A stretch of DNA of 64,000 nucleotides from Minisyncoccia bacterium (GTDB lineage: Bacteria > Patescibacteriota > Minisyncoccia > Phycocordibacterales > UBA918). Positions 36,280-43,427 of this stretch are shown in pieces. The stretch spans positions 83,176 through 147,175 of the forward strand of contig JBKBPM010000002.1 in assembly GCA_046293175.1 (NCBI GenBank), given 5' to 3'. Positions within the stretch are counted from its first letter, which is position 1. Each line of letters begins with the position of its first letter. The notes under the pieces are model-generated. The model did no database searches. It was not told where the DNA came from and was given only the letters and a program-made list of their open reading frames with translations. The position numbers were made by a program, and so were the translations under genes.

Positions 36280-38676
36280 ATGTCAGTCAACATCAGTAAA
36301 CACCATGCGGCCGTCATAGAATTTGAGCGCTACTTTTCTCGCCGAAAACAAGACTATTGGCGGGGGAGTGCCTTACTTCTTTTGACCCTAGGTATTGGTC
36401 TCTTGTTTGTTGACGGCACCGTGACTGACATTGTTGATGAACAAATTCTCATTGGTGTACTCTGCTTGGTACTCGCCACCTATGTAGATCTATTGGTTCT
36501 TCGACTCTTTTCCAATGCCACATATTATGCCGGTTTGTTCTCCACTACTGGTAGCGGCAACTATCAAGAGCATGGCCTTACCTATGATGCAATGGTAGTG
36601 CTGAGCGCTGGACAGCACGATCTCACCAAAGCGTTTCTCGAATCTTCGTTTGGACAACATATATATGTACGCGCAGAGCTAAGTGAAGAGGTGGTGAAAG
36701 CATGGCTTATAAGTGAGCGCTATCCGGTCAAAGCAGCGGTAGTGAGTCTCTCAGCTGGACGGGCGACTTCACTCATTGATATTGTTCAGGCCATCCTTGC
36801 TCACGATATTGCATTTTCGCGCTTTCTAGAACGCCATGGAGTCACCCACGATACTTTACTTGGAGCGGCACACCTGGTGCTTGGTCACTACTACCAAACA
36901 AAGCGCCTTGAACGGTGGTGGAGTCGGGATCAACTCAGTCGCCGTGGTTCACTGGGACGTGAATTAACCCTTGGGGCCTGGCGGGAATATGTTCCGTATA
37001 CTGAACCGGTCGCTATCAATACCGAAACGCCTAACGAGTTTGAGCAGCATTATCTCAATTTTCTTCAAACCATTTTACAATCACGCAGGGATAGCAACAT
37101 TCTCCTCGTTGCCCCTGATCGTGATTGGAACCGTGTACTCATCGAAAAGCTTCAGCATACATTTGTAACAGGCACCGCCCTTGGCTCTATCAATACTATG
37201 AGTGTCATGACGATCAATCATGATTCTCTATTGTTTGAAAATACCACAACAGTGAGCGTTGAGGCAGCCTTACGCAGTATCCTGACTGAAGCCAGTCTGG
37301 CCGGCAATATGATACTCGTGCTTCCTGACCTAGAACAAGTAGCGGCACGCTACGCTTCTAAGGGAGTACTATTTACGCACATCCTCGAAGAATTCCTCAC
37401 GGCCGACCGACTCCATGTCATCATTACAAGCACAACTGAAGCATATCCAGTTATTAAGCGCACCGAGCTTGCCCTCGTTAAGCGTTGCGAGGAAGTAGTG
37501 GTCGAGGCGCTAACCGAAGAAACACTTTTGCGTTACCTCACGCATCATATATATAGTATCGAAGCTAAAAACAAAACCGTCTTTAGCTATCACGCGTTGA
37601 CCGCTATTGCTAAAACGGTTTATACCTATGATGTCCCTCTCGGTGCCCGAGTACAAGAAATAGCCGCTACTATTGCAAAAGAATATTTTGGTCAAGCGCT
37701 TATCACTCATGATATGGCAGAACGAAGCCTTGGTACACTCCTCGATTTACCCGTTGGACCACTGACTCAAAACGAACGGGACATTTTGCTTTCCATTGAA
37801 CGCATTATGCAACAAGAAGTCGTTGGGCAAGACCGAGCAATTCATGCTGTCGGCATTGCACTGCGCCGGATGCGGGCAGCGCTGGTTGATACCAAACGAC
37901 CACTCGCCTCATTTTTATTCTTAGGTCCAAGTGGCGTCGGAAAAACGGAGACTGCCAAGACGCTGGCCAAAGTATATTTTGGAAATGCTGACGCACTACT
38001 ACGATTCGATATGTCTGAATTCGCAGACGGTGAAGGATTACCACGACTCATTGGTAGCGAAACAACCTCGAGCCTCCTTGAAGATAAACTCCTTCAGCAT
38101 CCGCGCGGTCTCATACTCCTTGATGAATTTGAAAAATCTCATCCGGATGTACAAGAATTATTTTTGCAAATTCTTGACGAGGGTCAGGTACACACCCACA
38201 GCGGTACAGTCCTCCATTTCCGCCAATACATCATCATTGCCACCAGTAATGCGGGGAGTCAACTCATCGCACGCACCAAAGACAAACGTGCGGAGAGTCC
38301 AACCCTTGATAGTGATGTCATAGCCCATATTATTCAGACTCGTGCACTTGCTCCGGAACTCATTGGTCGCTTTGGTGATGTTATCCTTTTTGATGCACTC
38401 ACTTTTGCTGATGAAGTCACCATCGCCAATCAACTGATTGCTACACTTGGACACCGCATTTTGGAGCGAGGTTTTATACTCGCCGTACAAGATGGGGTAA
38501 GCGAAACTATTGTTGAGCAATACCATAACAGTCAATTCGGCGCTCGACCAATTCGGCATGCTATCGAACATATTCTTGAGGACATTATTGCAACCCGAAT
38601 TATTCGAGGGGATGCAAAACCAGGTGACACTATCACTATCTCCTGCGAAGATTTACCGCACAGCACTCGCAACTAA
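36280..38676 (+). CDS. Membrane-anchored ClpB/ClpC-like AAA+ ATPase with a degenerate first nucleotide-binding domain
   Basis: The D2 domain is intact: VVGQDRAIHAVGIALRRMRAAL, Walker A FLGPSGVGKTETAKTLA, LLDEFEKSHPDVQELFLQILDEG. In D1 the Walker A position reads LLVAPDRDWNRVLIEKL. N-terminal TM helix. I used the internal start MSVNISK. Confidence 0.65.
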   Translation: MSVNISKHHAAVIEFERYFSRRKQDYWRGSALLLLTLGIGLLFVDGTVTDIVDEQILIGVLCLVLATYVDLLVLRLFSNATYYAGLFSTTGSGNYQEHGLTYDAMVVLSAGQHDLTKAFLESSFGQHIYVRAELSEEVVKAWLISERYPVKAAVVSLSAGRATSLIDIVQAILAHDIAFSRFLERHGVTHDTLLGAAHLVLGHYYQTKRLERWWSRDQLSRRGSLGRELTLGAWREYVPYTEPVAINTETPNEFEQHYLNFLQTILQSRRDSNILLVAPDRDWNRVLIEKLQHTFVTGTALGSINTMSVMTINHDSLLFENTTTVSVEAALRSILTEASLAGNMILVLPDLEQVAARYASKGVLFTHILEEFLTADRLHVIITSTTEAYPVIKRTELALVKRCEEVVVEALTEETLLRYLTHHIYSIEAKNKTVFSYHALTAIAKTVYTYDVPLGARVQEIAATIAKEYFGQALITHDMAERSLGTLLDLPVGPLTQNERDILLSIERIMQQEVVGQDRAIHAVGIALRRMRAALVDTKRPLASFLFLGPSGVGKTETAKTLAKVYFGNADALLRFDMSEFADGEGLPRLIGSETTSSLLEDKLLQHPRGLILLDEFEKSHPDVQELFLQILDEGQVHTHSGTVLHFRQYIIIATSNAGSQLIARTKDKRAESPTLDSDVIAHIIQTRALAPELIGRFGDVILFDALTFADEVTIANQLIATLGHRILERGFILAVQDGVSETIVEQYHNSQFGARPIRHAIEHILEDIIATRIIRGDAKPGDTITISCEDLPHSTRN

Positions 38677-38735
38677 CAACCGTCCGTACTATACTTATAT
38701 AGTGATCAGCATGTGTTAGTCTGGTCGCGTAATAA

Positions 38736-39119
38736 TTGTATATGCCACCTACTCAATCAACTCCGACACCAGCTGAAACAGTTCCTGCGACAGGGACACC
38801 AACTGGCGGGGATAATAGTGCACTCCTTGGAATCCTTGCATACCTTGGACCACTAGTCATCGTGTCATACCTCATGGGGAAAGATAATCCCTTTGTGGTC
38901 TTCCATACCAAACAAGGGATGGTGCTCTTTGCCATCGAACTCGCTATTTATATATTATCGAGTTTTATGTTTTATGGATTCTTCTTTCTAGCCCCACTGC
39001 TTGCTTTAGTGAATCTTGGATGCTTCGTTCTTTCTATTGTAGGAATTATCCATGTTGTGCAAAAAGAACAAAAACCGTTACCGGTTGTGGGCGGTCTCTC
39101 AAAACACATACCCTTTTAG
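38736..39119 (+). CDS. DUF4870-like small membrane protein
   Basis: The HTKQGMVLFAIELAIYIL motif region and three TM helices. Confidence 0.5.
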   Translation: MYMPPTQSTPTPAETVPATGTPTGGDNSALLGILAYLGPLVIVSYLMGKDNPFVVFHTKQGMVLFAIELAIYILSSFMFYGFFFLAPLLALVNLGCFVLSIVGIIHVVQKEQKPLPVVGGLSKHIPF

Positions 39120-39130
39120 GAGGGAACACT

Positions 39131-39166
39131 TGCAAAAAACACCTCACCAGATGAGGTGTTTTTTGC
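39131..39166 (+). terminator. Rho-independent terminator
   Basis: gcaaaaaacacctca-ccag-atgaggtgttttttgc. Confidence 0.7.
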
Positions 39167-39213
39167 ACGCTACGTATGTCTAAAAATTAGACATAGGGTG
39201 TATACTTAGAGTT

Positions 39214-39912
39214 ATGAAAACGACATCTTATGCGAAGCTCTTGCGCTTCCTTCGGACCGAACGCAATCTCTCACAAATTACGGTAGCTAAACAGCTCGGA
39301 CTATCTCGTGCCTCATACCTGGCACTTGAGCATGGAAGTCGCGAACTTTCACTCCGCGAAGCTATCAAAGTAACAACCCTCTATGGGATTCGTATTGATG
39401 ATCTTATCCTCAACCACAAACCCGATTTTGAAAAATACAAAATGATGGTTTTGGCACTCCTGCGAGCTGCCAAAGAAGAATCAGTGGTTCTGAAGAAAAC
39501 AAAGCTATCACTCCTCCTCTACCTTGCCGATATGCGCAACTACTACGAAACTAAAGAAAGTATGAGTGGCATGACGTATCGCAAACAGAGCTATGGCCCA
39601 GTCTCTGATGTATTCCACCGCTTAATTGATGAAATGGAACGCGACGGATCACTGACCATCACCCAGATACTCCGCGATGACTACCACATGTACGAAATCA
39701 AAGAGAGTCGAGGCAGTGCACGCACAAAACTTTTGCATCTTAGCCCCAAAGAGCAAAAGCGTCTCTACGAACTTTGCCGGGCATGGGGGACTACACCAAC
39801 CGCCGAACTCCAGCAATTCATCATGGCTGGGCGTCCTATTAGTGAAACGGCCGAGGGATGTGATATCGACTACGCGCTCATAAGTGACGAAGAGCCGCAT
39901 CTCGTCTCCTAA
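39214..39912 (+). CDS. XRE-family HTH fused to a Panacea/SocA-like (DUF4065) domain, an antitoxin-like protein
   Basis: HTH RNLSQITVAKQLGLSRASYLALEHG; DUF4065-like core KLSLLLYLADMRNYYETKESMSGMTYRKQSYGPV. Confidence 0.6.
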   Translation: MKTTSYAKLLRFLRTERNLSQITVAKQLGLSRASYLALEHGSRELSLREAIKVTTLYGIRIDDLILNHKPDFEKYKMMVLALLRAAKEESVVLKKTKLSLLLYLADMRNYYETKESMSGMTYRKQSYGPVSDVFHRLIDEMERDGSLTITQILRDDYHMYEIKESRGSARTKLLHLSPKEQKRLYELCRAWGTTPTAELQQFIMAGRPISETAEGCDIDYALISDEEPHLVS

Positions 39913-40180
39913 CAGCACCCTTCCCCAAAGAGCAAGTATCACCCTTTCTAACCGCGTGCTTTCGGTGTCATCAGTTTTACCCAGCAAAACACCACAGAAG
40001 CTCGACACTATTTGGCACACCAGTAGTTAATTACCAGGTTGCCACGCCAGCAAGACACGGAACGTGGGGGGGAAAAGGAGCCTACAAGAGACAAATGTAA
40101 TAACTTGCATTTTTAATAGATTATGCTATAATTTAAGCATCCTTCGCAGGTTATAACGGTGAGGCAAACGACAAGGAAAC

Positions 40181-40489
40181 TTGGGTATCTACGCTTTGTT
40201 TCACCATCACATACATCATTTTATGTTAAGTAAGCGAGTAAAAGAAAATGTCTTGAAGGGCGTCAAACGTCACGATACTGATACTGGATCACCAGAAGCA
40301 CAAGTAGCTCTCCTCACTCGTCAGATTGAAGAGCTCTCGACGCACCTCCGCAAGCACAAGAAAGATTTTCACTCACGTCGTGGTCTCTTGCAGCTCGTGG
40401 CAGACCGTCGCAAGCACCTCAAGTACCTGGAACGCAAAGACACAAAGGCCTACCAGGCACTCATTGAGAAGCTCGGACTTAAGCGCTAA
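40181..40489 (+). CDS. rpsO: 30S ribosomal protein S15
   Basis: TGSPEAQVALLTRQIEELSTHLRKHKKDFHSRRGLLQLVADRRKHLKYL. Confidence 0.9.
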   Translation: MGIYALFHHHIHHFMLSKRVKENVLKGVKRHDTDTGSPEAQVALLTRQIEELSTHLRKHKKDFHSRRGLLQLVADRRKHLKYLERKDTKAYQALIEKLGLKR

Positions 40490-40493
40490 CATT

Positions 40494-40529
40494 TTGCTCC
40501 AGTACGGAGCATTTTGTTTTTTTTCAAAG
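40494..40529 (+). terminator. Terminator after rpsO
   Basis: tgctcc-agtac-ggagca followed by a T8 run. Confidence 0.5.
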
Positions 40530-40539
40530 AGGCGTATAG

Positions 40540-41154
40540 TTGAGGGGTGCGAAAGCATTAAAATATTTTTATATGGGAATCATAAGACATCCAGACCAGC
40601 GCGTCGCTGTTTTGATCGACACGCAAAACCTCTACCACAGTGCAAAGAACTTATACAAAGCGAAAGTAAATTTCGGCAATGTTGTGAAAGCTGCAGTTGG
40701 TGATCGTAAACTTATCCGCGCCCTATCGTATGTGGTAAATACCGAAAGCGGGGAAGAGACACCATTTTTTGAAGCCCTTGAAAAGGTCGGTATCGAAATT
40801 AAAACTAAAGACCTGCAAATATTTTTTGGTGGTGCAAAAAAAGCTGACTGGGATGTTGGTCTTGCTATCGATGCAATTAAGCTTGCACATAAGGTCGATG
40901 CCATAGTCCTGGCCAGTGGCGACGGCGATTTTATCCCGCTCGTGGAATACGTCAAAAGTCAGGGTTGTCAAGTTGAGGTCATTACATTTGGTCGCTCAGC
41001 TTCTGGTCGTTTGCGAGAAGTTGTTGATGACTTTATTGACCTTGATGAAGCTCCTCAGGATTTTTTGATTGGCTATCGCAATCATCGCGGCAAAGGCAAT
41101 GGATCACGCAAGCAAATGAAACACATCGTTGGTACTGACACTGACAATTTATAA
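40540..41154 (+). CDS. NYN-domain (LabA-like, PIN-fold) protein
   Basis: VAVLIDTQNLYHS and IVLASGDGDFIPLVEYVKSQGCQVEVI. Confidence 0.7.
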   Translation: MRGAKALKYFYMGIIRHPDQRVAVLIDTQNLYHSAKNLYKAKVNFGNVVKAAVGDRKLIRALSYVVNTESGEETPFFEALEKVGIEIKTKDLQIFFGGAKKADWDVGLAIDAIKLAHKVDAIVLASGDGDFIPLVEYVKSQGCQVEVITFGRSASGRLREVVDDFIDLDEAPQDFLIGYRNHRGKGNGSRKQMKHIVGTDTDNL

Positions 41155-41172
41155 CGCAACACGCTACAACAA

Positions 41173-41211
41173 CCACCTTGCACACATTGAGCGTGCAAGG
41201 TGGTTTTGATA
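41173..41211 (+). terminator. Terminator after the NYN gene
   Basis: ccaccttgcac-acattgagc-gtgcaaggtgg followed by ttttgat. Confidence 0.65.
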
Positions 41212-41300
41212 TGCTTGGAGTGACGCTTACCAGTAAGTGGGGAGGTAAGTAGATTTCAAAGATTGAAATCTAAAACTTCCCCATTTCAAAATGATAATTC

Positions 41301-43427
41301 ATGTACAAAAAAACTTACGAGATGCAGTTAGGAGGAAAGTTACTCATTGCCGAATTTAATGATCTCACCCCCAAAGCACATGGTTCAGTTATGATGCGCT
41401 ACGGAGAAACTGTGGTACTGGTCACTGCCGTCATGGGTGAAAAGGAACAGCCAGACCTACCGTACTTTCCACTCTCTGTTGAGTACGAAGAGAAGTTTTA
41501 TGCAGCCGGTGCCATTCTTGGGAGTCGTTACGGACGTCGTGAGGGACGACCGAGCGATGAGGCCATCCTCAGTGCGCGGATTGTTGACCGCACCATTCGT
41601 CCACTTTTTAACCACGCACTTCGTCGTGACGTGCAGGTAGTTGTAACGGTACTCGCTATTGGGGATGAGGACCCAGACGTACTCTCGGTCATTGGTGCAG
41701 GACTTGCATTAGGGGTTTCACCAATCCCTTGGGATGGTCCGATTGGTGCCGTACGTATTGTGAAACGACAGGATACTGGAGCAGTTATTATTAACCCGAC
41801 ATTTAGCGATCGCGCTTCAACACCATTTGCTTTTGAGGTGTTGGCGTGTGGGAAGGATGGCAGTATTAATATGATTGAGACTGCTGCGGATGAGGTCAGT
41901 GAAACAGATATCATCGCAGTACTCGAAGCAGCTACTGTTCTCCATAGCGATATTGTTTCTTTTGCCCGAACAATTATTGCTGAGCGCGGTAGTAAAAAGT
42001 ATGACCTCCCAGCCACCCCTGACATGAGTGCACTCGAAACGCTATTCACAAATGACTTTGCGAATCGACTCGGACAAACGTTATTTAGTAACCAGCCAGG
42101 CAAAGCTCACCTCTATGCACTAAAAAATGACTGGCTCGCAGCTGTTGCGCTACTCCCCACACCGGTCAGTCGGGTACTGGCCGATAGTTTCTTTGAGGAA
42201 ATGATAAACGAAGCAATCCATGTCGGCGCAGTTGAGTTTGGGAAACGGGCTGACGGACGAGGACTTGATGAAGTACGTCCCCTCTATGCACAAGCTGGTG
42301 GTGTTTCACCAGTCCTTCATGGCAGCGGTATCTTCTACCGGGGAGACACGCATATCTTTAGTGCACTTACCCTTGGTGGACCTGAAGCGGCACAGCTCAT
42401 TGATACGATTGAAGACCAATCAACCAGTAAGCGCTTTATGCACCACTATAACTTTCCGCCGTTTTCAGTCGGTGAAACTGGTCGGGTCGGAGGATTTAAT
42501 CGTCGTATGATTGGCCACGGTGCACTTGCCGAAAAAGCGCTCCTCCCTGTCATTCCCGATAAAGAGTCATTCCCATACACCATTCGTCTCGTTTCGGAGA
42601 CCTTCTCGAGTAACGGCTCGAGTTCCATGGGATCAGTATGCGCTAGCACGCTGGCCCTCATGGATGGTGGTGTCCCGATTAAGAAACCAGTGGCGGGGAT
42701 AGCCTCAGGGGTGATGATTCAAGGCGACCGCCACGCGCTTCTCACTGACATCCAGGGACCAGAAGATGAACATGGTGACATGGACTTTAAAGTGGCCGGA
42801 ACCAGAGACGGCATTACTGCAATCCAGATGGATGTCAAAGTCGGTGGTATCTCACTGTCGATACTCGAAGAAGCACTTGAGAAAGCCCGTCTTGCACGCC
42901 TCCATATATTAGATACCATCACCAACACTATCAGCGCACCACGACCTACCATCTCACCACGAGCGCCAGAAATTATTACCCTCACTATTTTGCCTGAGCA
43001 GATTGGTCTAGTGATCGGTAGTGGCGGCAAAACCATCAACAAGATCAAAGATGAGTCTGGTGTCGCTGACATCACCATAGAAGATGACGGGACTGTCTAT
43101 ATTACTGGCAAAGATGGCACAGCAGGTATCGCTGCCGCTACAATTAAAAGTCTAACTCGAACTTACCAAGTGGGAGAGAAGGCGACTGCAACGGTCACTA
43201 AAATCACTGCCTTTGGTGCCTTTGCAAAATTGGATGACTTTCATGAAGGATTGATTCACATCTCCGAAATCGCCCCTTTCAGACTCGACGATTTGACCAG
43301 TGTTCTCACCGAAGGGGAAACCGTGTCGGTAGTGGTATGTAAGGTTGAAGACGGCAAGATTGGTCTATCAATTAAACAAATTGACCCTGAGTTTGCTACA
43401 CGCAAAGGTATTATTGCCCAAAAATAA
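41301..43427 (+). CDS. pnp: Polyribonucleotide nucleotidyltransferase (PNPase)
   Basis: 708 aa; two RNase PH domains plus KH (GSGGKTINKIKDESG) and S1 domains. Confidence 0.95.
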   Translation: MYKKTYEMQLGGKLLIAEFNDLTPKAHGSVMMRYGETVVLVTAVMGEKEQPDLPYFPLSVEYEEKFYAAGAILGSRYGRREGRPSDEAILSARIVDRTIRPLFNHALRRDVQVVVTVLAIGDEDPDVLSVIGAGLALGVSPIPWDGPIGAVRIVKRQDTGAVIINPTFSDRASTPFAFEVLACGKDGSINMIETAADEVSETDIIAVLEAATVLHSDIVSFARTIIAERGSKKYDLPATPDMSALETLFTNDFANRLGQTLFSNQPGKAHLYALKNDWLAAVALLPTPVSRVLADSFFEEMINEAIHVGAVEFGKRADGRGLDEVRPLYAQAGGVSPVLHGSGIFYRGDTHIFSALTLGGPEAAQLIDTIEDQSTSKRFMHHYNFPPFSVGETGRVGGFNRRMIGHGALAEKALLPVIPDKESFPYTIRLVSETFSSNGSSSMGSVCASTLALMDGGVPIKKPVAGIASGVMIQGDRHALLTDIQGPEDEHGDMDFKVAGTRDGITAIQMDVKVGGISLSILEEALEKARLARLHILDTITNTISAPRPTISPRAPEIITLTILPEQIGLVIGSGGKTINKIKDESGVADITIEDDGTVYITGKDGTAGIAAATIKSLTRTYQVGEKATATVTKITAFGAFAKLDDFHEGLIHISEIAPFRLDDLTSVLTEGETVSVVVCKVEDGKIGLSIKQIDPEFATRKGIIAQK

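What the first reader, a model, noticed from the sequence alone, without database searches (positions are those of the whole stretch)
38736..39912. Orphan XRE-HTH::Panacea (DUF4065/SocA-like) antitoxin-like gene next to a DUF4870 small membrane protein
Panacea-domain proteins typically act as antitoxins in two-gene modules with diverse toxins, which are frequently small membrane proteins. Here the HTH-Panacea gene (39214-39912) stands alone between terminators. The only neighbour is a three-TM DUF4870 protein upstream, separated by its own terminator. This could be an unconventional or degenerate toxin-antitoxin pair, or a Panacea protein repurposed as a transcription factor.
Basis: partly seen in the sequence, partly recalled or inferred. 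Interest (0 to 1): 0.55.

Follow-up and report, generated by a model that had tools for sequence, protein, structure and literature searches.

The report
Solo HTH-Panacea antitoxin that lost its toxin
This is an intact, strongly conserved DNA-binding "antitoxin-type" gene in a tiny-genome Parcubacteria bacterium. Its relatives almost always sit in front of a RelE-like toxin gene that this lineage has lost, and the membrane-protein gene beside it is just a neighbour, so the finding is real but fairly ordinary.

Summary
The domain calls are correct. Window 39214-39912 encodes a 232-aa XRE-HTH + Panacea (PF13274, 35.9 bits against a cut-off of 25.7) protein. Window 38742-39119 encodes a three-TM DUF4870 protein.

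The gene belongs to a large Patescibacteria family. In 66 of 81 loci it is followed, with an overlap of 11 nt to a gap of 8 nt, by a ~130-aa protein I call c1. c1 matches no Pfam or NCBIfam model. Its AlphaFold model (pLDDT 90) matches RelE, HigB and YoeB toxins.

The window lineage has no c1 and no remnant of it. Even so, its PanA is under strong purifying selection (dN/dS 0.03-0.10). It also keeps the family's promoter design: a palindromic operator at 39176-39194 and a -10 box 7 nt before the ATG, which implies a leaderless mRNA.

DUF4870 is linked to PanA only inside one syntenic clade (clpB-like, DUF4870, panA, rpsO, NYN, pnp). In all 18 such loci a covarying intrinsic terminator separates the two genes. 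More distant DUF4870 genes never have a PanA beside them.

Verdict: this is a solo, autoregulated PanA descended from a PanA/RelE-like toxin-antitoxin module. The DUF4870 toxin idea is not supported. It is a new member of a known kind, of modest interest.

The parts
38742..39119 (+). DUF4870 (PF09685, MamF/MmsF-like) three-TM membrane protein. It is the last gene of the upstream unit (TM protein, clpB-like AAA+, DUF4870). It is a neighbour, not a partner of the Panacea gene.
   Evidence: Pfam 31.7 bits against a cut-off of 25. The gene call starts at this ATG on the Logan contig. Hydrophobic segments at residues 28-48 and 60-110. Linked to PanA only within the syntenic clade.
39131..39166 (+). 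Intrinsic terminator (A-run, 15-bp stem, U-run) that ends the DUF4870 transcript.
   Evidence: Folds at -23.1 kcal/mol, z = -5.4. An equivalent hairpin plus T-run, with different stem sequences, is present in all 18 DUF4870-panA spacers.
39176..39194 (.). Palindrome ATGTCTAAAAATTAGACAT, the candidate operator of the HTH domain. It covers the position where a -35 element would lie.
   Evidence: It is the only copy in the 64-kb window. It is conserved in L002 and L003, and other palindromes occupy the same place in L005 and L006. A TGTY-N7-11-RACA motif occurs upstream of 45 of 82 family members, against 1.9 expected from shuffles.
39201..39206 (+). -10 box TATACT, 7 nt before the ATG. This implies a leaderless or nearly leaderless panA mRNA.
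   Evidence: Invariant in the six clade sequences. A TAnnnT box lies 4-10 nt before the ATG (mode 6-7 nt) in 69 of 82 family members, against about 25 in shuffles.
39214..39912 (+). Solo PanA: XRE-type HTH (residues ~7-66, nt 39232-39411) plus Panacea/DUF4065 domain (Pfam match residues 101-202, nt 39514-39819; structural domain ~72-232).
   Evidence: Pfam. AlphaFold model with pLDDT 90.6. The HTH matches C.AhdI, HipB and DdrO folds. 263 full-length homologues. dN/dS 0.03-0.10 in both domains.
39913..40104 (.). Poorly conserved non-coding spacer at the position where relatives carry the RelE-like partner gene c1. No remnant of c1, no conserved ORF and no terminator.
   Evidence: The c1 profile finds nothing in the window or in any locus of the clade. 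Small ORFs are not conserved between relatives. Alignment A6. Fold z = -0.17.
40105..40222 (+). rpsO promoter (weak -35 TTGCAT at 40105-40110; extended -10 TGcTATAAT at 40124-40132) and leader. It marks the start of the next, unrelated transcription unit (rpsO 40223-40489, NYN 40573-41154, pnp 41301-43427).
   Evidence: Nearly invariant across six relatives, in contrast to the spacer before it. Gene calls and Pfam families on L001.

Best explanation
The gene is a solo ('orphan') PanA.

Shown:
- It descends from a Patescibacteria-wide, antitoxin-first two-gene module. In that module an HTH-Panacea protein is translationally coupled to a ~130-aa RelE-fold protein (c1).
- In the ancestor of the window's Kaiserbacteria-like clade the module sat between the DUF4870 gene and rpsO. 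c1 was then lost without trace, and panA was kept under strong purifying selection.
- The DUF4870 gene is only a syntenic neighbour, transcribed separately.

Inferred mechanism:
- The protein dimerises and its XRE-HTH binds the palindrome ATGTCTAAAAATTAGACAT.
- That palindrome occupies the -35 region of its own promoter, so the protein represses its own leaderless transcript.
- The Panacea domain no longer serves a cis-encoded toxin. In the window subclade it carries about a dozen fixed substitutions at positions that are invariant in toxin-paired relatives. It has therefore probably been re-tuned as a sensor or interaction module of a small transcription factor. It has probably not been kept as a spare c1 antidote.
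For: - Domains score above the curated cut-offs, and the model is confident at pLDDT 90.6.
- Family size: 263 full-length homologues and relatives in 230 GTDB species genomes, including the cultured Minisyncoccus archaeiphilus.
- In 57 of 80 loci by ORF clustering, and 66 of 81 by profile, panA is followed on the same strand by c1, with an 11-nt overlap to an 8-nt gap in all but two loci (14- and 41-nt overlaps).
- The c1 model has pLDDT 90.4. Its top ~40 Foldseek hits in the PDB are almost all RelE, HigB2, YoeB, YafQ or ParE toxins; the best is 1wmi_A, E = 4.6e-4, probability 1.0.
- c1 is absent from the window and from all 18 DUF4870-linked loci.
- Toxin loss with PanA retention recurs elsewhere. 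L030 has a ~311-nt deletion of c1 relative to L028, whose panA is 99% identical. L043 lacks c1 while its sister L058 has it. c1 is split in L033 and L076.
- dN/dS is 0.03-0.10 in both the HTH and Panacea parts. PanA identity to L002 is 94%, similar to NYN (95%) and PNPase (92%).
- The operator and the leaderless promoter are conserved in the clade and across the family. The operator is unique within the window.
- The window subclade shares derived substitutions at positions conserved in at least 60 of the 64 paired PanAs (most in all 64): K100, F107, W109, F135, K190, V200, T203, H204, Q206, Y209.
- Published background: about half of all DUF4065 proteins are not in TA-like loci, 343 PanAs carry an HTH, and a YoeB/ParE-like PanT cluster (T28) exists (PMC8832971).
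Against: - No experiment supports DNA binding, autorepression or the leaderless start. All three rest on sequence patterns.
- Only 64 kb of this genome is visible, so a c1-type or other toxin encoded elsewhere and neutralised in trans cannot be excluded.
- The neighbour-joining tree places c1-bearing members (L009, L012, L013) among the orphans. The number and order of losses is therefore uncertain.
- Whether the derived substitutions lie on a toxin-binding face was not tested, because no complex model could be made.
- The DUF4870-panA adjacency, with a spacer of 97-138 nt, does persist down to ~43-48% PanA identity. It also persists in L087 and L088, where the clpB-like gene is missing. That adjacency would pass a naive distance-and-conservation filter for TA pairs.
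Confidence: 0.65

Rival explanations
1. One reading: DUF4870 (toxin-first, membrane toxin) and HTH-Panacea form an unconventional toxin-antitoxin pair. The Panacea domain would bind the membrane protein and hold it in check.
For: - The two genes are adjacent on the same strand, with a spacer of 97-138 nt, in 18 loci spanning ~43-100% PanA identity. This includes L087 and L088, which lack the clpB-like gene.
- Three validated PanTs are membrane-depolarising proteins, and toxin-first order occurs in PanAT systems (PMC8832971; PMC10440598).
- The Panacea domain of this clade has diverged at positions that are invariant in c1-paired relatives. That pattern could reflect a change of partner.
Against: - A strong terminator with covarying stems separates the genes in all 18 loci, and panA has its own operator and promoter.
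- The adjacency is confined to one clade in which the whole housekeeping block is syntenic.
- 75 other PanA loci lack DUF4870.
- The other 35 DUF4870 loci (50% identity or less) show no PanA match; the 8 read in full sit in unrelated contexts.
- DUF4870 is truncated or frameshifted in L004 while panA there is intact.
- DUF4870 has no PADLOC hit. From my own knowledge, it is a widespread housekeeping-type membrane family not known to be toxic.
Confidence: 0.1
2. The solo PanA is kept as an in-trans antidote (anti-addiction or immunity). It would neutralise c1-type RelE-like toxins that are encoded elsewhere in the genome or that arrive on mobile elements or from neighbouring cells.
For: - The Panacea fold core is intact and under purifying selection.
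- The c1 family is very large in Patescibacteria, at 1626 clusters, so exposure to it is plausible.
- Toxin loss with antitoxin retention recurs in the family.
Against: - The window subclade has replaced about a dozen residues that are invariant in all or nearly all 64 c1-paired PanAs. That argues against continued recognition of c1.
- No c1 is present in the 64-kb window or in up to 12 kb around related loci.
- No member of either family was found on viral contigs.
Confidence: 0.2
3. The gene is a decaying remnant of a dead toxin-antitoxin module, with no present function.
For: The toxin partner is gone. Antitoxin genes often outlive toxin genes for a while.
Against: - The ORF is intact in every member of the clade.
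- dN/dS is 0.03-0.10 at dS of about 1 or more.
- Protein identity is on a par with neighbouring housekeeping genes.
- The promoter and operator are conserved.
Confidence: 0.03
4. The protein is a SocA-like (type VI) proteolytic adaptor that delivers a substrate to the Clp-family AAA+ protein encoded two genes upstream.
For: A Panacea domain is shared with SocA (the Pfam family name). A ClpB/ClpC-like AAA+ gene at 36280-38676 lies nearby in most loci of the clade.
Against: - There is no SocB-like gene among the neighbours.
- The AAA+ protein is of ClpB type (AAA_2 plus ClpB_D2-small), not ClpX.
- It is missing from L087 and L088, where panA is retained.
- It is absent from the other 75 PanA loci.
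Confidence: 0.04

Closest known systems
PanAT type II toxin-antitoxin systems with HTH-bearing PanA (Kurata et al. 2022, PMC8832971; Ernits et al. 2023, PMC10440598)
   Same: It has the same Panacea/DUF4065 domain and the same N-terminal HTH add-on, which the paper reports in 343 PanAs. The relatives of the window gene have the common antitoxin-first order and a tightly coupled downstream partner. A YoeB/ParE/RelE-like PanT cluster (T28) is already described.
   Different: The window copy has no partner gene at all. The family and its ~130-aa RelE-fold partner are from Patescibacteria, which I did not find in the parts of the paper's data that I could search. The partner matches no Pfam or NCBIfam model.
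HigBA/RelBE-type modules (XRE-HTH antitoxin plus RelE-fold mRNA interferase)
   Same: In relatives, an HTH antitoxin precedes a RelE-fold protein; the closest folds are 1wmi RelE, 8a0x HigB2 and 7v6w YoeB. There is a palindromic operator at the promoter.
   Different: The element presumed to bind the toxin is a Panacea domain, not a HigA or RelB C-terminal segment. c1 has two extra C-terminal helices and only 11-20% identity to known RelE-family toxins among the closer fold matches. The window has no toxin.
SocAB (type VI; SocA is a ClpXP adaptor for SocB)
   Same: It shares the Panacea domain.
   Different: There is no SocB and no ClpX context. The window protein has an HTH, which SocA lacks (from my own knowledge of SocA).
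Orphan or solo antitoxins and R-M controller (C) proteins
   Same: It is a small autoregulated XRE-HTH repressor with a palindromic operator over its own promoter. The HTH fold is closest to C.AhdI, C.BclI, HipB and DdrO. It has lost its toxin partner, as chromosomal solo antitoxins have (from my own knowledge).
   Different: It carries a full Panacea domain. It has been fixed in a housekeeping synteny block across a family-level clade under strong constraint.

Membership tests
PanA (Panacea/DUF4065-containing protein) | Panacea domain (PF13274) scoring above Pfam's gathering threshold | tested here: met
   35.9 bits against a cut-off of 25.7, residues 101-202. All listed full-length homologues carry precomputed PF13274. 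The fold model is confident.
PanAT toxin-antitoxin system (as a two-gene module) | A partner gene within 100 nt or less, conserved across species and forming a two-gene operon with PanA | tested here: not met
   In the window the downstream 310 nt are non-coding and rpsO follows. The family partner c1 is absent. DUF4870 lies 94 nt upstream but is cut off by a terminator conserved in 18 of 18 loci. The feature is met in relatives: c1 follows panA in 66 of 81 loci.
PanAT toxin-antitoxin system (as a two-gene module) | The partner is toxic and PanA neutralises it by forming a complex | not testable with these tools
   This needs co-expression and pull-down assays. Here there is only the fold similarity of c1 to RelE-family toxins.
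XRE-family autoregulated repressor | Cro/C1-type HTH above threshold, plus a palindromic operator at its own promoter | tested here: met
   HTH_3 scores 39.4 bits against a cut-off of 23. The palindrome at 39176-39194 sits in front of the -10 box at 39201-39206 and is unique in the window. The pattern holds across the family. DNA binding itself was not tested.
SocA-type proteolytic adaptor (type VI TA) | An adjacent SocB-like toxin and dependence on ClpXP | tested here: not met
   The neighbours are DUF4870, a ClpB-like AAA+ protein, S15, NYN and PNPase. None is SocB-like or ClpX.
DUF4870 / MamF_MmsF (PF09685) | Domain above threshold and about three TM helices | tested here: met
   31.7 bits against a cut-off of 25. 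Hydrophobic segments at residues 28-48 and 60-110.
Membrane-type PanT toxin (DUF4870 as candidate) | Genetic linkage to PanA that is independent of general synteny, plus co-transcription | tested here: not met
   Linkage occurs only in the syntenic clade. A terminator separates the genes in 18 of 18 loci. Toxicity is not testable here.
RelE/ParE-superfamily toxin (partner c1 of relatives, not in the window) | RelE-type fold (beta-alpha-alpha followed by an antiparallel sheet) | tested here: met
   The AF2 model has pLDDT 90.4. Almost all of the top ~40 Foldseek PDB hits are RelE, HigB, YoeB, YafQ or ParE; the best has E = 4.6e-4, probability 1.0, and TM-score normalised to the target of 0.73.
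RelE/ParE-superfamily toxin (partner c1 of relatives, not in the window) | A sequence-family match and catalytic residues | tested here: inconclusive
   No significant Pfam, NCBIfam, PADLOC or PDB sequence match, only chance-level hits. The invariant residues K65, E67, R83, Y101 and K103 could be catalytic, but they were not mapped onto RelE active sites.

The most novel reading that the evidence does not exclude
In one Parcubacteria (Kaiserbacteria-like) lineage, a toxin-antitoxin antitoxin has been domesticated into a fixed, housekeeping-grade regulator. After the RelE-like toxin was lost, the Panacea domain was remodelled at about a dozen formerly invariant positions. It now senses or binds a new partner, which could be the adjacent DUF4870 membrane protein or a small molecule. 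Through that partner it would control transcription beyond its own promoter. If so, it would be a natural example of Panacea acting purely as a sensor domain, which is the role Ernits et al. 2023 hypothesised.
Probability: 0.15. Interest if true: 0.55.

Novelty: new member of a known kind. Interest (0 to 1): 0.3.

Why it matters
For the window itself the result is mainly a correct annotation: a solo, autoregulated PanA-type repressor, not a toxin-antitoxin pair with DUF4870.

The wider by-products are of more use.
- Patescibacteria carry a very large HTH-PanA/RelE-fold module that no family model covers. The toxin side alone has 1626 sequence clusters, all labelled 'hypothetical'. The module is also present in the cultured Minisyncoccus archaeiphilus, where it could be tested.
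- The contrast between toxin-paired and long-term solo PanAs points to candidate toxin-contact residues of the Panacea domain (K100, F107, W109, K190, V200, H204 and others).
- The family shows a consistent leaderless-promoter and operator design in a phylum whose gene regulation is little known.

Tried and rejected
- I looked for a c1 remnant in the window with hmmsearch --max on all six frames. The best E-value was 2.4, so nothing was found. The same search in all clade loci also found nothing.
- I looked for conserved small ORFs in the panA-rpsO spacer. None is shared between relatives.
- An Rfam scan of 38000-41500 gave only sub-threshold chance hits.
- I searched the window for further operator copies that might define a regulon. 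Only the site at the gene's own promoter was found.
- I searched PDB sequences for a solved Panacea relative. Only the HTH part matches. The Foldseek search of the full model was likewise dominated by HTH proteins, with only a loose DarG similarity (PADLOC DarG E = 0.0012).
- I searched for a sequence family for c1 in Pfam, NCBIfam, PADLOC and PDB sequences. None was found.
- I asked whether other orphans have alternative downstream partners. The adjacent ORFs in L008, L010, L015 and L016 (from their sequences they look like DUF1801- and DUF1697-type proteins, a DNA methyltransferase and a secreted protein; not scanned against Pfam) show no toxin-like pattern and are not conserved.
- I scanned IMG/VR viral contigs for both families to test mobility on phages. 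There were no relatives.
- I rejected the decaying-pseudogene reading because of dN/dS.
- I rejected the SocA-adaptor reading because there is no SocB or ClpX and the AAA+ neighbour is not consistently present.
Full report
**What is in the sequence**

The ORF at 39214-39912 (+) encodes a 232-aa protein. It scores HTH_3 39.4 bits (cut-off 23; residues 10-64) and SocA_Panacea PF13274 35.9 bits (cut-off 25.7; residues 101-202). ATG 39214 is the only possible in-frame start, and the N-terminus MKTTSYA aligns with the N-termini of homologues. An AlphaFold model built on 26 homologues is confident, with pLDDT 90.6. It shows a five-helix HTH followed by a helical domain with a beta-hairpin. By fold and by sequence, the HTH is closest to R-M controller proteins, HipB and DdrO. 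No solved structure matches the Panacea part by sequence.

The upstream ORF scores DUF4870/PF09685 31.7 bits against a cut-off of 25. Its likely true start is ATG 38742, which gives 125 aa, as called on the Logan contig. Its hydrophobic stretches fit three TM helices.

Between the two genes lies a textbook intrinsic terminator at 39131-39166: -23.1 kcal/mol, z = -5.4. Downstream of the Panacea gene I found no terminator. The next 310 nt are non-coding and run into the rpsO promoter. 'Between terminators' is only half right.

**Genomic setting**

The window comes from a Patescibacteria genome of the Parcubacteria/Kaiserbacteria type, judging by the names of related records. The local gene order is:

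- a small TM protein
- a ClpB-like AAA+ protein (36280-38676)
- DUF4870
- panA
- rpsO (40223-40489)
- an NYN-domain protein
- PNPase

**The family and its usual partner**

- The protein has 263 full-length (~231 aa) homologues with the same two domains.
- A scan of one genome per GTDB species found relatives in 230 species. All appear to be Patescibacteria (a few records carry other labels), and they include the cultured Minisyncoccus archaeiphilus.
- I clustered the ORFs of 80 fetched loci. The only widely shared neighbour is a ~130-aa protein, which I call c1. It lies immediately downstream on the same strand, usually from an 11-nt overlap to an 8-nt gap.
- With a profile search, c1 is present in 66 of 81 loci.
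- c1 has no significant match in Pfam, NCBIfam, PADLOC or PDB sequences. It forms a family of 1626 sequence clusters, all labelled 'hypothetical'.
- Its AlphaFold model has pLDDT 90.4. By Foldseek, almost all of its top ~40 PDB hits are RelE-superfamily toxins: RelE 1wmi at E = 4.6e-4 and probability 1.0, then HigB2, YoeB, YafQ and ParE.
- A second, smaller PanA subfamily (L063, L071) is followed by a 111-aa ORF with a classic RelE/HigB look.

The canonical form of this family is therefore an antitoxin-first HTH-PanA plus RelE-fold module. This is a known kind of system. Kurata et al. report 343 HTH-bearing PanAs and a YoeB/ParE/RelE-like PanT cluster, T28 (PMC8832971).

**The window copy has lost the partner**

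- The c1 profile finds nothing in any frame of the 64-kb window.
- It finds nothing in L001-L006.
- It finds nothing in 12 further metagenomic loci of the same clade.
- The 39913-40104 spacer is poorly conserved and holds no shared ORF.

Toxin loss with PanA retention recurs in the family:

- L030 has a PanA 99% identical to that of L028, but a ~311-nt deletion removes c1.
- L043 lacks c1 while its sister L058 has it.
- c1 is split in L033 and L076.

Other orphans in the same broad clade (L007, L008, L010, L011, L015, L016) have unrelated, non-conserved neighbours. In a neighbour-joining tree the orphans concentrate in one Kaiserbacteria-like clade, with a few c1-bearing members interspersed. 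The exact number of losses is uncertain.

**The solo gene is functional**

- Pairwise dN/dS within the window subclade is 0.03-0.10, at dS of about 0.1-2, in both the HTH and the Panacea parts.
- Protein identity to L002 is 94%. The neighbouring NYN protein is at 95%, PNPase at 92% and the AAA+ protein at 90%.
- The upstream region is conserved. It comprises the palindrome ATGTCTAAAAATTAGACAT (39176-39194) and an invariant TATACT box (39201-39206) 7 nt before the ATG.
- The design holds across the family. Of 82 members, 69 have a -10-like box 4-10 nt before the ATG (about 25 in shuffles). 35 also have a TTGACA-like -35 matching at 5 of 6 positions or better, at proper spacing (0.8 in shuffles). 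45 have a TGTY-N7-11-RACA motif (1.9 in shuffles).

This points to leaderless transcripts and autorepression through the HTH. Both are inferred, not shown. The palindrome occurs only once in the window, so no wider regulon is visible.

**Signs of re-specialisation**

68 positions are at least 90% conserved among 64 c1-paired PanAs. The six DUF4870-linked sequences L001-L006, which include the window copy, all keep 9 of the 11 such positions in the HTH but only 26 of the 57 in the Panacea part. L001-L004 share derived residues at positions that are invariant or nearly invariant in paired proteins: K100L/C, F107M, W109N, F135H, K190A/V, V200Q, T203I, H204M/L, Q206G, Y209I/M/S and Y232S. L005 and L006 share a subset of these, at K100, K190, V200 and H204. 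More recent orphans keep the ancestral residues.

These new residues are themselves under strong constraint. I therefore read the pattern as a retuned interaction surface after toxin loss. This is inference, because no complex model could be made.

**The DUF4870 question**

A scan of metagenome contigs with a DUF4870 alignment returned 47 loci.

- Twelve of them (L082-L088, L090-L094) have PanA next to DUF4870. All belong to the same syntenic block: csp, TM protein, AAA+, DUF4870, panA, rpsO, NYN, pnp. L087 and L088 lack the AAA+ gene.
- The other 35 loci, with DUF4870 identity of 50% or less, show no PanA match; the 8 read in full sit in unrelated contexts.
- Conversely, 75 PanA loci outside the clade have no DUF4870.
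- In all 18 adjacent pairs the 97-138-nt spacer contains a strong hairpin plus T-run. The stem sequences differ from locus to locus, so the structure is conserved by covariation.
- In L004 the DUF4870 gene is truncated while panA is intact.

The adjacency is thus explained by vertical synteny with separate transcription. A functional pairing cannot be excluded without experiments, but nothing specific supports it.

**Comparison with known systems and verdict**

The protein is a PanA by domain content, but it does not meet the defining two-gene criterion of a PanAT system. It works most like a small autoregulated XRE repressor that carries a Panacea domain. In published surveys about half of all DUF4065 proteins lie outside TA-like loci (PMC8832971), so a solo PanA is not surprising in itself. 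Ernits et al. (PMC10440598) hypothesise a sensory role for Panacea. The long-conserved solo copy here is compatible with that role but does not prove it.

I rate it as a new member of a known kind, with interest 0.3. The more useful by-product is the large, unmodelled RelE-fold partner family in Patescibacteria.

Noticed in passing
window 40105-40222: The rpsO promoter (extended -10 TGcTATAAT at 40124-40132, weak -35 TTGCAT at 40105-40110) and a ~90-nt leader are almost invariant in six relatives, although the 190 nt before them vary freely. There is no Rfam match. This is a candidate S15 autoregulatory leader of a type not yet described.
   Followed up: partly
window ~39953-39975: A conserved block GCGTGCTTWYGGTGTCATCAG sits inside the otherwise poorly conserved panA-rpsO spacer in five of six relatives. 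It has no obvious hairpin or ORF and remains unexplained.
   Followed up: no
window 36280-38676: The ClpB/ClpC-like AAA+ protein has two N-terminal hydrophobic (TM-like) segments at residues ~49-102. Only its second ATPase module (AAA_2 plus ClpB_D2-small) scores in Pfam, so the first module appears degenerate. This looks like a membrane-anchored Clp-type ATPase. It is preceded by a 129-aa TM protein that overlaps its start.
   Followed up: partly
L009-L081 (e.g. L018:6677-7069, L060:6662-7054): A ~130-aa RelE-fold protein family (c1; motifs SGNRCI, LLVYxKxD, NETxxW) follows HTH-PanA in 66 of 81 loci. It has 1626 sequence clusters, no Pfam, NCBIfam or PADLOC model, and every member is labelled hypothetical. 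It is also present in the cultured Minisyncoccus archaeiphilus.
   Followed up: yes
L063:2372-3441, L071:9941-10997: A second, divergent HTH-PanA subfamily is followed by a 111-112-aa ORF with a classic RelE/HigB-like sequence pattern. It sits next to a first PanA-c1 module in the same loci.
   Followed up: partly
L030:6600-6850 vs L028:6600-7100: A very recent toxin loss: the panA genes are 99% identical, but about 311 nt covering most of c1 are deleted in L030. c1 is also split into two ORFs in L033 and L076.
   Followed up: yes
L006:6782-7054, L090:6254-6532: A Cys-rich ~90-aa ORF (CPCGCGG... motif) is conserved between two Kaiserbacteria loci in the enlarged panA-rpsO spacer. It is absent from the window.
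   Followed up: no
L004:5537-5893: The DUF4870 gene of this relative is interrupted by two stops, leaving only a 73-aa C-terminal ORF, while the adjacent panA is intact. This could be a pseudogene or an assembly error.
   Followed up: partly
window 40573-41154: An NYN-domain (LabA-like, PIN-related nuclease) gene lies between rpsO and pnp. It is the most conserved protein of the block, at 76-96% identity across the clade. The grouping rpsO, NYN, pnp suggests an RNA-turnover operon.
   Followed up: no
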